A stretch of 64,000 nt of DNA from Escherichia coli (GTDB lineage: Bacteria; Pseudomonadota; Gammaproteobacteria; Enterobacterales; Enterobacteriaceae), in NCBI RefSeq assembly GCF_011045215.1, contig NZ_CP049201.1; one strand, written 5' to 3'. Made by a program: the position numbers. Positions 12,001-15,000 of the stretch are shown here, piece after piece; the stretch's first letter is position 1, and every line of letters starts with the position of its first letter.

Positions 12001-15000
12001 GACAATCATTCCCCGGCGATTAAGGACAATCTGCTTTAAGGTCATGCCATTATTGCGCAACTGAATACCGACGAGGAAAAGTAGCAGAATTAACGTGTAT
12101 TCGCTGGCTTCGGTCGCGTGTTGTAAGAAAGCCAGTCCACTCAGACCAATGGCAAAACCAATCACTACTACGCCGCACAGTTTTAGCGACTCCAGCGCCA
12201 TCGCAATACGCGACGGGAGTTTTTCTTGCTGATGGTGATTGCGCCATGGCAGGCCTCGCTCCAGCCACATCAGGGCGGCAATATTACATAGTAAAATAAC
12301 GGTAATACTGACAGCAGAATAATGCAGAATCGCCAACAGGTTACTGGCGAGGTTATCGAGAAACGCCAGACTGATACCCATAAAAAAGAGAATAAGGTAA
12401 ACCATCCAGCTTAATAGCTGATTAATAACTTTTAACGCAGCTTTTTGGCGAAGCGGAATGAGGTAACCCACAATCAGGGGAACCAGAATGATTAACAGCC
12501 CAGAAAACATGAAAACCCAGTCCTTGCAAAGATGAAGTCGAAATGCGCGATGACACACTACTGAAAGCGGAAGGACGAGTAAAGTTGCAATTAAAAGGAA
12601 ATGTTATGCATAAGGAGCAGTAGAGTATTCGTTTTCATTTAAAGATATTCTTGCGCTTTAATTACAAACTGCACCGATGTTGGTGGCGTCAAAATCGCCG
12701 AGGCGTTCCCTGAAGGCCGGGGCAGCCCACATGGATGTGGGCTGAGGGCGCGTTTTACAGGGATGTTACCTCGCGCCCGATCCGGTAGCCGTAAGGGATA
12801 AGTCGAGGGCACCGCGCAGCGGCGATTTTGTTCGCCAGAGCCCGGGGGTGCAGGGGGCGGCGGCGATTGGCCGCCCCCTGCGCGCTCCTTGCGCCAGTGG
12901 CAATATGTGGCTTAGCTCATGAAAGGAGCGCAACAAGATGATGAATCAACATATAACAACATCTTAAAAAAAGGCCTGACATTACGCCAGGCCTTCTGCG
13001 TTAATTAATTACGTTTTTCCAGCAGAGTCCGGTAAATCAGACCACCGATAATGCCGCCGACAATTGGCACCACCCAGAAGAACCACAGTTGTTCTAATGC
13101 CCAGCCGCCCTGGAAGATAGCAACCGCGGTGCTGCGCGCCGGGTTAACAGAAGTGTTAGTCACCGGAATACTGATTAAGTGAATCAGGGTTAAGGCCAGA
13201 CCAATAGCGATCGGCGCAAAACCTGCCGGAGCGAATTTGTCGGTTGCACCGTGGATCACTAACAGGAAGCCCGCACTCAATACCAGTTCAACTACCAGCG
13301 CGGAAAGCATGGAATAACCGCCTGGTGAATGCTCGCCATAACCGTTAGAAGCAAAACCGCTGGCTGCCGCGTCAAAACCCGTTTTACCACTGGCAATTAA
13401 ATACAGCAGCGCTGCCGCAACAATACCGCCGACAACCTGGGCAATTACGTAGCCAACGACTTCTTTTGCCGGAAAACGTCCGCCAGCCCATAAACCAATA
13501 GTGACCGCCGGGTTAAAATGACCACCAGAAATATGACCAACAGCAAAGGCCATCGTCAGAACGGTCAGACCGAACGCCAACGCCACGCCGGCAAAACCAA
13601 TGCCTAATTCCGGGAAGCCTGCGGCCAGAACAGCACTACCACAGCCACCAAAAACAAGCCAGAAAGTACCAAAACATTCAGCTGCTAATTTTCTGAACAT
13701 ATCCACCTCAATTAAAAATTGACCCTGTGAAAAATATGGTCGTTTTATAGGGTCGTCGTAAAAAAGTGACGACGGAAATAATGCGCGGCTATTTTAAAAA
13801 CGAAGGCGAGTCATTCACCAGATAAATAAATCCAGTAAATTTGATTTAGGGCAACAGCGGGTTGCCCCATATAGTCATTTGTCTGATTGACAGTGTAGTG
13901 CAAGCAAAAGATTTAATCCTTTAGGCGTAATAAAAAATAATTTATCATGCTAATTATTTGATTTTGTTGTTTTTGCAGACTTATCAGCAAGAGGGAGTAT
14001 AACGCGATTATTCGCTCATTTTTCAGACATTTGCCATGCTTAAATGTGATGTCATCACGTATTAGCAAGGCCTTTCCCGTTATACTGCCAGCGTAAAGGA
14101 TAAGTCACATATTTCTGGAGGGGATATGATTCTTGAGCGCGTTGAAATTGTGGGTTTTCGCGGTATCAACCGTTTGTCGTTGATGCTGGAACAAAACAAC
14201 GTCCTGATTGGGGAGAACGCGTGGGGTAAATCCAGCTTGCTGGACGCCTTAACCCTGCTGCTATCGCCAGAATCAGATCTCTACCATTTTGAGCGCGACG
14301 ATTTCTGGTTCCCGCCGGGAGATATCAACGGGCGAGAACATCATCTGCATATTATTTTGACCTTCCGCGAATCGCTGCCAGGCCGACATCGGGTTCGCCG
14401 TTATCGGCCGCTGGAAGCGTGCTGGACGCCATGCACCGATGGCTATCACCGTATTTTTTATCGTCTGGAAGGGGAGAGTGCGGAAGACGGCAGCGTGATG
14501 ACACTGCGCAGTTTTCTCGATAAAGACGGACATCCGATTGATGTTGAGGATATTAACGATCAGGCACGCCATCTGGTGCGTTTAATGCCGGTGCTGCGCT
14601 TGCGTGATGCCCGTTTTATGCGCCGTATTCGTAACGGCACGGTGCCAAATGTCCCCAATGTGGAAGTCACCGCGCGCCAGCTCGATTTCCTCGCCCGTGA
14701 GTTGTCCTCACATCCGCAAAATCTCTCTGATGGACAGATTCGTCAGGGACTTTCCGCAATGGTGCAGTTGCTTGAGCATTATTTCTCTGAGCAGGGGGCT
14801 GGACAGGCGCGATATCGTTTAATGCGGCGGCGGGCCAGCAATGAGCAACGAAGCTGGCGCTATCTGGACATCATCAACCGGATGATTGACCGACCTGGAG
14901 GGCGCTCGTATCGGGTTATTTTGCTCGGCCTGTTTGCTACTTTATTGCAGGCAAAAGGCACATTGCGACTGGATAAAGACGCCCGTCCATTGTTGCTGAT

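What the first reader, a model, noticed from the sequence alone, without database searches (positions are those of the whole stretch)
12700..12910. GC-rich palindromic cluster between lysO and aqpZ
A ~200-bp stretch of ~70% GC contains at least two strong palindromes (gcccacat/atgtgggc and agggggcggc…gccgccccct) plus further inverted repeats ahead of the aqpZ terminator. It fits neither a simple terminator nor a repeat family I can name with confidence; it could be a REP/BIME-type element or a structured RNA.
Basis: seen in the sequence. Interest (0 to 1): 0.35.

Follow-up and report, generated by a model that had tools for sequence, protein, structure and literature searches.

The report
Known TRIP1/RRS replication-gap repeat (RRS-lysO)
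The GC-rich palindrome cluster between lysO and aqpZ is the already described E. coli TRIP1a repeat, also called RRS-lysO, a foldable DNA element shown by others to make the replication machinery leave a short single-stranded gap; it is not a REP/BIME element and there is no evidence that it is an RNA gene.

Summary

It is the core of a 266-bp element (12669-12934). That element is near-identical to the same spacer in E. coli K-12. It occurs in 5425 of 5426 complete E. coli genomes, with a median of 3 copies.

The literature identifies it as TRIP1a (Rudd 1999; Li 2024) and as RRS-lysO, a "Replication Risk Sequence" (Pham 2023, 2024; Kusi-Appauh 2026). The published G-quadruplex motif GGGGGTGCAGGGGGCGGCGG lies at 12844-12863 on the + strand, which here is the lagging-strand template, as published.

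It is not REP/BIME. It reaches no Rfam gathering score. It has no conserved ORF, promoter or terminator.

My additions:
- A 13-helix fold of the G-rich strand is kept across six or more enterobacterial genera, with 21 of 63 pairs showing compensatory changes.
- G·U/T pairs far outnumber A·C on that strand (93 vs 11).
- The 3' half of the G4 motif lies inside a covarying 12-bp hairpin.
- GGA hairpin loops are near-invariant.
- One loop is hypervariable in sequence but fixed in length.
- About 37% of E. coli genomes carry the dusC copy in the reverse orientation.

Verdict: already known; interest low to moderate.

The parts
12669..12934 (+). TRIP1a repeat (266 bp), the full named element
   Evidence: Li 2024 (PMC10888264) places TRIP1a 158 bp upstream of the ybjE/lysO start and 70 bp downstream of the aqpZ stop. 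158+266+70 = 494 bp, which is the K-12 spacer. I mapped this to the window through alignment A1. GC is 65%.
12680..12941 (+). Stretch shared with the K-12 dusC copy (RRS-dusC/TRIP1c). The published 222-bp RRS lies inside it, probably about 12680-12901 (inferred).
   Evidence: Local alignment of 262 bp with 248 identical bases; alignments.
12844..12863 (+). Published G-quadruplex-forming motif GGGGGTGCAGGGGGCGGCGG
   Evidence: Exact match on the + strand only. The motif is quoted from Pham 2024.
12850..12881 (+). 12-bp all-G/C-rich hairpin that overlaps the 3' half of the G4 motif
   Evidence: 100% complementary arms. Across 50 copies, 93.6% of cells are paired against about 50% when partners are slid. 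5 pairs show changes on both sides, in 35 cells against 8.4 in shuffles.
12723..12744 (+). Hairpin 1, loop ACAUGGAUGU
   Evidence: helix 7, with A-U to G-C compensation in 20/30 copies. The loop is intact in 97 of 101 metagenome copies retrieved with a pattern that did not include it.
12746..12778 (+). Hairpin 2, loop ACAGGGAUGU
   Evidence: Helices 8 and 9. GGA is present in the loop in 50/50 copies.
12684..12697 (+). 5' halves of the two closing helices; they pair with 12823-12837
   Evidence: Helices 1 and 2. 4 of the 5 pairs of helix 1 show compensatory changes.
12823..12837 (+). 3' halves of the closing helices
12698..12721 (+). 5' strands of junction helices 3-6; they pair with 12781-12808, which contains GGGAUAAG
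   Evidence: GGA is present at the third site in 46/50 copies.
12812..12822 (+). Small hairpin CCGC-GCA-GCGG
   Evidence: Helix 10.
12883..12930 (+). 3' hairpin (CGCUCCU/AGGAGCG) enclosing a hypervariable loop of fixed length
   Evidence: Helix 13, with 5 of 7 pairs showing compensatory changes. There are 53 distinct loops among 70 copies, of length 36-37 nt. The AGGAG and ATG seen here are not conserved in other copies.
12971..12995 (-). aqpZ intrinsic terminator hairpin (a neighbour, not part of the repeat)
   Evidence: Inverted repeat I18 followed by T7 on the - strand. It lies outside the stretch shared with other copies.

Best explanation
This is RRS-lysO, the TRIP1a copy of the enterobacterial TRIP1 repeat. 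It is a 222-266-bp GC-rich intergenic DNA element that works as DNA, not through a protein or a known RNA. When the replisome unwinds it, the G-rich (+) strand is briefly single-stranded as the lagging-strand template. That strand folds into a very stable structure: a G-quadruplex according to its discoverers, and a conserved multi-hairpin fold according to my comparative analysis. The folded structure blocks the lagging-strand polymerase, which restarts downstream. This leaves a transient post-replication gap of up to about 2 kb that is loaded with SSB and RecA. Together with its inverted partner near dusC, about 650 kb on the other side of dif, it is proposed to act as a topological relief valve at the edges of the Ter macrodomain. 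What is shown here: identity, position, strand and conserved fold. What is taken from published experiments on the near-identical K-12 sequence: gap formation, conditional essentiality and supercoiling effects. What is inferred: that this strain's copy behaves the same way.
For: Identity:
- The whole lysO-aqpZ spacer aligns with K-12 over 446 bp with about 3 differences.
- The same gene order hcp-lysO-aqpZ is present.
- The element is in 5425 of 5426 complete E. coli genomes, median 3 places. Other copies lie at yohP-dusC and efeU-putP, exactly the TRIP1c and TRIP1b loci of Li 2024.
- The published G4 motif matches exactly at 12844-12863 on the + strand.
- The window is colinear with K-12 + coordinates in the right replichore, and its GC skew is +0.056. 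The + strand is therefore the lagging-strand template, as published.

Mechanism, from the literature:
- RecA/SSB ssDNA peaks at both RRS disappear on deletion.
- Pol I, II and IV stall at the G4 site.
- Ectopic RRS copies create new gaps.
- A double deletion is obtained only together with a 200-kb amplification, and global supercoiling changes.
- Single-molecule assays show a gap at nearly every replisome encounter.

My own support for strand-specific folding:
- 98.1% of 3133 pair cells are standard pairs, against 91.2% in shuffles and about 40% with slid partners.
- 21 of 63 pairs carry double changes.
- G·U 93 against A·C 11 on the + strand, versus 42 against 56 on the - strand.
- DNA folding z-scores are -6.3 and -7.0.
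Against: - The G-quadruplex itself rests on a predictor plus polymerase stops. The text I read contains no mention of circular dichroism, potassium or KCl, or a G4 mutant.
- The 3' half of the motif sits in a covarying hairpin. Pseudescherichia-type copies keep that hairpin while their G4Hunter score drops to about 1.0. The blocking structure may therefore be the hairpin fold rather than a G4.
- The orientation that is supposed to matter is not fixed in nature. 2002 of 5426 genomes carry the dusC copy reversed. 928 carry a reversed-type lysO spacer, some with an internally deleted element. Li 2024 reports the same.
- Near-invariant GGA loops and a length-conserved hypervariable loop are not explained by a simple roadblock.
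- Klebsiella (about 13 copies) and Enterobacter sp. ENT03 (7 or more) have many copies, which does not fit a simple two-site design.
Confidence: 0.85

Rival explanations
1. The element is, or is also, the gene for a structured non-coding RNA read from the + strand. This RNA would be related to the TwoAYGGAY motif, and its GGA hairpin loops would bind CsrA.
For: - The best Rfam match is TwoAYGGAY (RF01731) on the + strand at 12689-12828. The match is full-length, with an outer stem plus two hairpins, at E 0.054.
- The loops ACAUGGAUGU and ACAGGGAUGU resemble the CsrA SELEX consensus RUACARGGAUGU (from my own knowledge). TwoAYGGAY has been proposed to bind CsrA (PMC4333381).
- GGA is kept in loop 2 in 50/50 copies and at a third site in 46/50.
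- The G·U excess on the + strand fits an RNA as well as it fits ssDNA.
- Li 2024 also suggests possible transcription.
Against: - The score of 28.1 bits is well below the gathering score of 43, and the match is lost in a larger search.
- No sigma-70-like promoter or intrinsic terminator was found on either strand.
- Here the + strand is antisense to both neighbours. Orientation relative to neighbours flips between strains.
- dusC and ybjE are not listed as CsrA CLIP targets in E. coli, although that table is gene-based.
- Loop 2 is AGGGAU, not AYGGAY.
- The published DNA-level function already accounts for a strand-specific fold.
Confidence: 0.08
2. It is a REP/BIME-type repetitive extragenic palindrome.
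For: It is intergenic, GC-rich, palindromic and multi-copy.
Against: - It shows no match to the BIME-derived Rfam model naRNA4 at E<=10, although that model found BIMEs in loci L002 and L004.
- The unit is about 266 bp with 13 helices, not tandem 35-bp REPs.
- There are only about 3 copies per E. coli genome, not hundreds.
- Klebsiella copies sit next to separate REP sequences and are distinct from them.
Confidence: 0.01
3. It is primarily a decayed or non-autonomous mobile element (MITE-like). Its presence here would be an insertion relic, with any replication effect a side-effect.
For: - Copy number varies from 1 to 10 in E. coli, with about 13 in Klebsiella and 7 near-identical copies in Enterobacter sp. 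ENT03.
- Either orientation occurs at the same locus, with unrelated immediate flanks.
- Tandem copies occur in a gut metagenome contig (L065).
- A weak inverted repeat lies at the two ends in this copy (12645-12657/12927-12939, 85%).
Against: - The terminal repeat is not kept in Klebsiella, Pseudescherichia or ENT03 copies.
- No target-site duplication was seen.
- No associated transposase was found, and there is no phage match.
- The 'plasmid' matches inspected are chromosomal segments, and all 34 records are typed non-mobilizable.
- Loci are fixed across about 5400 genomes (Li 2024).
- Strong purifying selection on the pairing and the conditional essentiality in K-12 argue for a host function.
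Confidence: 0.05
4. It is a cis-regulatory leader or promoter module for lysO.
For: A genomic SELEX study assigns an RpoD promoter, TTGACG-19-TGTAAT, to ybjE in this spacer (PMC3946193). That sequence is the reverse complement of the element's 5' edge (about 12661-12692). The same end faces efeU at the TRIP1b locus.
Against: - Only the outermost 5' edge is involved, so the other 240 bp are unexplained.
- The element is reversed or internally deleted at this locus in 928 genomes.
- At dusC it lies downstream of genes.
- ybjE shows no CsrA-dependent change.
Confidence: 0.03

Closest known systems
TRIP1 repeats of E. coli (Rudd 1999; Li et al. 2024, Genes 15:236, PMC10888264)
   Same: It is the same sequence, the same locus (TRIP1a between ybjE/lysO and aqpZ), the same length and the same GC content. 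The same sister loci (putP-efeU, yohP/yohG-dusC) and the same orientation polymorphism were found independently here.
   Different: Nothing material differs. The published work predicted single-sequence RNA folds (a 'double-Y'). It reported no covariation analysis and no strand test.
RRS, Replication Risk Sequences (Pham et al. 2023 NAR PMC10287960; Pham et al. 2024 PMC10592627; Kusi-Appauh et al. 2026 PMC13308219)
   Same: This is RRS-lysO itself. There is an exact G4 motif on the strand that is the lagging-strand template, and the position beside lysO matches.
   Different: The published model attributes the block to a G-quadruplex and describes sequence and position as highly conserved. My data show that the selected feature is a 13-helix fold that includes a hairpin over the G4 motif. 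About 37% of E. coli genomes have the dusC copy reversed.
Neisseria gonorrhoeae pilE G4
   Same: It is the only other bacterial sequence reported to trigger gap formation by folding of one strand (cited).
   Different: It is unrelated in sequence. It is a short G4 that serves antigenic variation, not a 260-bp multi-hairpin repeat flanking Ter.
TwoAYGGAY RNA motif (Rfam RF01731)
   Same: Both have an outer stem enclosing two adjacent hairpins with GGA-containing loops, joined by an 'AG' linker, and the model alignment is full-length.
   Different: The score is 28.1 bits against a gathering score of 43. The second loop is AGGGAU. There is no evidence of transcription. The element continues for another 110 nt with two more hairpins.
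REP/BIME elements
   Same: Both are intergenic GC-rich palindromic repeats with proposed roles in chromosome topology.
   Different: There is no sequence or model similarity. The unit is about 7 times longer. Copy number is about 3 rather than about 300-600.

Membership tests
TRIP1 / RRS | Sequence homology to K-12 TRIP1a / RRS-lysO | tested here: met
   The 446-bp spacer aligns end to end with K-12 with about 3 differences. The repeat is 248/262 identical to the K-12 dusC copy.
TRIP1 / RRS | Location between lysO (ybjE) and aqpZ, 158 bp and 70 bp from the two genes | tested here: met
   ORFs and K-12 annotation; coordinates from Li 2024 map to 12669-12934.
TRIP1 / RRS | G4-forming motif GGGGGTGCAGGGGGCGGCGG on one strand only | tested here: met
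   Exact match at 12844-12863 on the + strand, none on the - strand.
TRIP1 / RRS | The G-rich strand is the lagging-strand template | tested here: met
   The window is colinear with K-12 + coordinates at 0.915 Mb in the right replichore. Window GC skew is +0.056. The strand assignment follows from replication geometry and is an inference.
TRIP1 / RRS | An inverted partner copy near dusC, about 650 kb on the other side of dif | not testable with these tools
   The 64-kb window holds only one copy. The partner exists in K-12 and in nearly all E. coli genomes.
TRIP1 / RRS | Triggers RecA/SSB-bound post-replication gaps | not testable with these tools
   This is an experimental property, shown for the K-12 sequence.
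REP/BIME | About 35-bp REP palindromes in mosaic clusters | tested here: not met
   No naRNA4 (BIME) match at E<=10 in 12300-13300, while the same model detects BIMEs in L002 and L004. My own degenerate REP pattern found nothing anywhere in the window, so it was probably too strict and is uninformative.
TwoAYGGAY RNA (RF01731) | Score at or above the Rfam gathering threshold | tested here: not met
   28.1 bits against 43, E 0.054 in a 1-kb search. Not reported at E<=1 for five other copies.
TwoAYGGAY RNA (RF01731) | Two terminal loops of consensus AYGGAY | tested here: inconclusive
   Loop 1 is AUGGAU and fits. Loop 2 is AGGGAU/AGGGAC in most copies, a purine where Y is required; only 2 of 50 copies have AUGGA.
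CsrA-binding sRNA | A transcript exists and is bound by CsrA | tested here: inconclusive
   No promoter or terminator consensus was found. dusC and ybjE are not flagged in the E. coli CLIP-seq gene table, but intergenic peaks were not examined.
MITE | Terminal inverted repeats and target-site duplication | tested here: not met
   Only a weak 13-nt, 85% end repeat in this copy. It is not conserved in other genera, and no duplication is evident.

The most novel reading that the evidence does not exclude
What evolution preserves in RRS/TRIP1 may not be a G-quadruplex. It may instead be a specific 13-helix fold of the G-rich strand whose near-invariant GGA hairpin loops (ACAUGGAUGU, RCANGGAYGY, GGGAUAAG) are recognition sites for a trans-acting factor. 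That factor could be CsrA, if the strand is transcribed, or a protein that acts on the folded single-stranded DNA in the gap. The polymerase block would then come from the hairpins. The element would be a distant relative of the TwoAYGGAY motif.
Probability: 0.2. Interest if true: 0.6.

Novelty: already known. Interest (0 to 1): 0.27.

Why it matters
The feature itself is explained. It is one of the two E. coli sequences shown to programme post-replication gaps and to influence chromosome topology, so a scan should label it RRS-lysO/TRIP1a rather than flag it as unknown. RefSeq and Rfam carry no annotation for it, which is why it looked anonymous.

The comparative results obtained here bear on an open point in that work, namely which structure does the blocking. 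They give designs for separating a G4 from a hairpin fold. They also show that natural E. coli populations are polymorphic for the orientation that laboratory inversions suggest is important.

Tried and rejected
- **Rfam, permissive E-values:** only sub-threshold hits. TwoAYGGAY is kept as a resemblance; the rest (SpF03, Hrs12, STnc390 and others) sit on the aqpZ terminator and are chance.
- **REP/BIME:** rejected. My hand-made REP pattern matched nothing in 64 kb and is uninformative.
- **Small ORF:** the AAAGGAG-N7-ATGATG at 12923-12944 looks like a ribosome-binding site and start. In other copies the stem covaries to GUGAACG or AAGAGCG and the ATG becomes CTG or is absent, so it is a helix strand, not a start site.
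- **Phage origin:** no match in 50,697 phage records.
- **Plasmid carriage:** the three Klebsiella 'plasmid' hits and the E. coli plasmid record I inspected are chromosomal segments, and all 34 plasmid-collection matches are typed non-mobilizable.
- **Promoter and terminator scan:** none found on either strand.
- **Guide-RNA idea for the hypervariable 3' loop:** the longest shared word between a loop and its own flanks (about 6.0) equals that with other copies' flanks (about 5.9), in either sense. Rejected.
- **Terminal inverted repeats or target duplication:** not conserved.
- **CsrA CLIP-seq supplement:** no support.
- **Literal sequence search of the paper library:** nothing. The element was identified only by recalling Rudd's TRIP/PAIR/QUAD names.
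- **Covariance model:** not built, because only session-held DNA could have been searched with it.
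Full report
**1. The observation**

The interval 12700-12910 lies in the 446-bp spacer between lysO (ORF 11611-12558, - strand; K-12 start equivalent 12510) and aqpZ (13005-13706, -). It is 67.8% GC in a window that averages 48.9%, and 100-nt windows reach 0.74.

CAGCCCACAT/ATGTGGGCTG lies at 12723-12732/12735-12744. GCAGGGGGCGGC/GCCGCCCCCTGC lies at 12850-12861/12870-12881. Longer-range inverted repeats enclose them, such as 12690-12705/12815-12830.

The stretch folds far better than shuffled sequence on either strand:
- RNA, + strand: -140.7 kcal/mol, z -5.1.
- RNA, - strand: -125.4 kcal/mol, z -5.4.
- DNA, + strand: -78.5 kcal/mol, z -6.3.
- DNA, - strand: -75.9 kcal/mol, z -7.0.

The aqpZ terminator (12971-12995, T-run on the - strand) lies just outside.

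**2. It is a repeat**

The spacer is essentially identical to that of K-12. A 321-bp query covering the element matches 5425 of 5426 complete E. coli genomes, with a median of 3 and up to 10 places per genome. Nothing is annotated under any listed match, K-12 RefSeq included.

The other usual loci are yohP-dusC and efeU-putP. There is only one copy in this window. No phage record matches. The 'plasmid' matches I inspected are chromosomal segments, all 34 plasmid-collection matches are typed non-mobilizable, and one mislabelled Klebsiella pneumoniae chromosome has 13 places.

A pattern scan of species-representative genomes returned copies in the following:
- Escherichia (coli, albertii, whittamii and unnamed species)
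- Pseudescherichia vulneris (4 copies)
- Pseudocitrobacter
- Enterobacter sp. ENT03 (7 copies)
- Klebsiella
- Raoultella
- an unnamed Enterobacteriaceae isolate

A second scan with a different anchor gave more than 120 metagenome loci.

**3. Identification**

Rfam gave no hit at gathering level. The best match was a full-length but weak one to TwoAYGGAY (28.1 bits against 43, E 0.054).

A literal search of the paper library for the sequence found nothing. A search on Rudd's 1999 repeat names found two bodies of work.

- **Li et al. 2024** describe the TRIP1 repeats. K-12 has TRIP1a (266 bp, 158 bp upstream of ybjE/lysO and 70 bp downstream of aqpZ), TRIP1b (putP-ycdN/efeU, internally deleted) and TRIP1c (yohG-yohI/dusC). 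Both orientations occur at the a and c loci.
- **Pham et al. 2023 and 2024, and Kusi-Appauh et al. 2026,** describe the same two full copies as RRS-lysO and RRS-dusC. These are 222-bp 'Replication Risk Sequences' about 650 kb either side of dif.

The arithmetic 158+266+70 = 494 equals the K-12 spacer, and it maps TRIP1a to window 12669-12934. The published G4 motif GGGGGTGCAGGGGGCGGCGG is at 12844-12863 on the + strand only. The window is colinear with K-12 + coordinates in the right replichore and has a GC skew of +0.056. The + strand is therefore the lagging-strand template, as the RRS papers state for the native orientation.

**4. How it works, from published experiments on the K-12 sequence**

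- RecA and SSB accumulate on lagging-strand ssDNA for about 1.4-2.5 kb from each RRS, and the peaks vanish when the RRS is deleted.
- Pol I, II and IV stall at the G4 site on the G-rich strand.
- RRS copies moved elsewhere create new peaks.
- Inverted copies give no RecA/SSB peak in vivo.
- Both RRS can be deleted only together with a 200-kb amplification, or if ectopic or inverted copies are present.
- Double deletion or double inversion reshapes psoralen-measured supercoiling between lysO and dusC.
- In single-molecule assays the native orientation gives a gap at nearly every replisome encounter, and the complementary strand does so in about two-thirds of encounters.

The authors propose a 'topological relief valve'. 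I adopt this as the best explanation. The only inferred step is that this strain's near-identical copy behaves like K-12's.

**5. What the comparative analysis adds**

I aligned 50 distinct copies from six or more genera (A4).

*Conserved fold.* RNAalifold predicts 63 pairs in 13 helices, and 21 pairs have compensatory double changes. With that structure:
- 98.1% of 3133 cells are standard pairs, against 91.2% in column shuffles (0 of 500 as high) and 39-44% when partners are slid by 1-3 columns.
- 241 cells carry double changes, against 73.6 expected.

Two caveats apply. The structure was derived from the same alignment, and the sequences are related, so these figures are not probabilities. 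The gap between them and the controls is nevertheless large.

*Strand of the fold.* On the + strand G·U cells outnumber A·C by 93 to 11. For the best structure of the complementary strand the counts are 42 to 56. Selection therefore acts on folding of the G-rich strand. This agrees with the finding that this strand is the stronger block, and it fits ssDNA as well as RNA.

*Hairpin over the G4 motif.* The 3' half of the G4 motif forms the 5' arm of the 12-bp hairpin 12850-12881. That hairpin has 5 covarying pairs, for example GGGGGCGGC...GCCGCCCCC against GGGGGAGGA...TCCTCCCCC. It is 93.6% paired, against about 50% for slid controls. Pseudescherichia-type copies keep a hairpin while their G4Hunter score falls to about 1.0, against 1.8-2.1 in most others. 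The RRS paper I read does not mention CD, potassium dependence or G4 point mutants. Whether the block is a G4 or the hairpin fold therefore seems open.

*Loops.* The loop sequences are strikingly constant:
- ACAUGGAUGU/GCAUGGAUGC is intact in 97 of 101 metagenome copies retrieved without constraining it.
- GGA is present in loop 2 in 50/50 copies.
- GGA is present at GGGAUAAG in 46/50 copies.

By contrast, the loop of the 3' hairpin (about 12892-12921) is hypervariable, with 53 variants among 70 copies. It differs even among otherwise about 99% identical ENT03 copies, yet it is held at 36-37 nt. It bears no relation to the flanks. A plain roadblock model explains neither feature.

**6. Rivals**

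- **REP/BIME** is excluded.
- **Small ORF** is excluded, because the SD-like AGGAG and the ATG are one strand of a covarying helix.
- **ncRNA/CsrA reading.** It rests on the TwoAYGGAY resemblance and on SELEX-like loops (the consensus is from my memory; the CsrA proposal for TwoAYGGAY is). It lacks a promoter, a terminator, a consistent orientation and CLIP support.
- **Mobile-element origin** is plausible historically, given variable copy number, either orientation at a locus with unrelated flanks, and tandem arrays. There are no conserved terminal repeats, no duplication and no enzyme.
- **Role in lysO transcription** can concern only the outermost 5' edge, where a SELEX study places TTGACG...TGTAAT on the - strand.

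**7. Natural orientation polymorphism**

Junction-specific queries give the following counts among 5426 genomes:
- dusC locus, K-12 arrangement: 3410 genomes.
- dusC locus, reversed (5' end next to yohP): 2002 genomes.
- lysO spacer, K-12-type: 4029 genomes.
- lysO spacer, reversed-type: 928 genomes, some with the 125-bp internal deletion that removes both GGA hairpins but keeps the G-rich hairpin.

This confirms Li 2024. It sits uneasily with the statement that RRS position and sequence are highly conserved, and with the laboratory result that inversion abolishes the in-vivo gap signal.

**8. Verdict**

The finding is real but already explained and named, so novelty is 'already known'. The residual interest lies in three places: the conserved-fold-versus-G4 question, the invariant GGA loops, and the orientation polymorphism.

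Noticed in passing
L002 (strain N53) 3001-3303 versus L003/L012 (PSJ-42, K-12); L005 3957-4277 and L034 versus window 12559-13004: At both the dusC and the lysO loci the element occurs in either orientation in different E. coli strains, with unrelated immediate flanks. At dusC, 2002 genomes are reversed against 3410 of K-12 type. At lysO, 928 have a reversed-type spacer, some with an internal 125-bp deletion. I did not determine whether any strain is reversed at both loci.
   Followed up: partly
window 12892-12921 (loop of the 3' hairpin); ENT03 loci L027-L033: The loop of the last hairpin is hypervariable in sequence (53 variants in 70 copies). It differs even among about 99% identical copies within one genome, yet its length is fixed at 36-37 nt. 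It shows no match to its own flanks. Unexplained.
   Followed up: partly
L027-L033 (Enterobacter sp. ENT03); L065 1880-3221: In ENT03 the repeated unit is about 650 bp: the TRIP1-like core is preceded by about 400 bp of further conserved GC-rich sequence containing a second short variable AT-rich island. A gut-metagenome contig (L065) carries three copies spaced about 650 bp apart in tandem, and L068 carries two copies 340 bp apart.
   Followed up: partly
window about 12661-12692, - strand: The RpoD promoter assigned to ybjE/lysO by genomic SELEX (TTGACG-19-TGTAAT, PMC3946193) is the reverse complement of the element's 5' edge. I count a 20-nt spacer here. The same end of the element faces efeU at the TRIP1b locus.
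   Followed up: no
K-12 915,226 and 2,229,177 / 2,229,205 (equivalent to inside the element): An evolution study lists intermediate-frequency 'mutations' in the ybjE/aqpZ and yohP/dusC spacers (PMC11510482). They fall inside the two TRIP1 copies, so they probably reflect read cross-mapping or gene conversion between the repeats rather than new mutations.
   Followed up: no
L008-L010, just upstream of the element: Klebsiella copies are each preceded by a REP-like palindrome (GCCGGGTGGCGGCT..GCCTTACCCGGCCTAC) and about 60 bp of further conserved sequence. The Klebsiella unit is therefore longer on the 5' side than the E. coli unit.
   Followed up: no
L016 3232-3556: One Pseudescherichia vulneris copy carries an insertion of about 75 bp (itself GC-rich and palindromic) inside the junction region of the fold.
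   Followed up: no
L014 (Desulfacinum MAG), L041 (Sporobacter termitidis MAG), L019: Genome bins assigned to unrelated phyla contain Klebsiella- or E. coli-type copies of the element. This most likely reflects enterobacterial contamination of those bins.
   Followed up: no
L002 293-370; L004 2847-2883: BIME-type repeats (matches to Rfam naRNA4, below its gathering score: 52.3 and 27.2 bits against 59.5) lie near the dusC and efeU TRIP1 loci. They are separate from the TRIP1 element.
   Followed up: no
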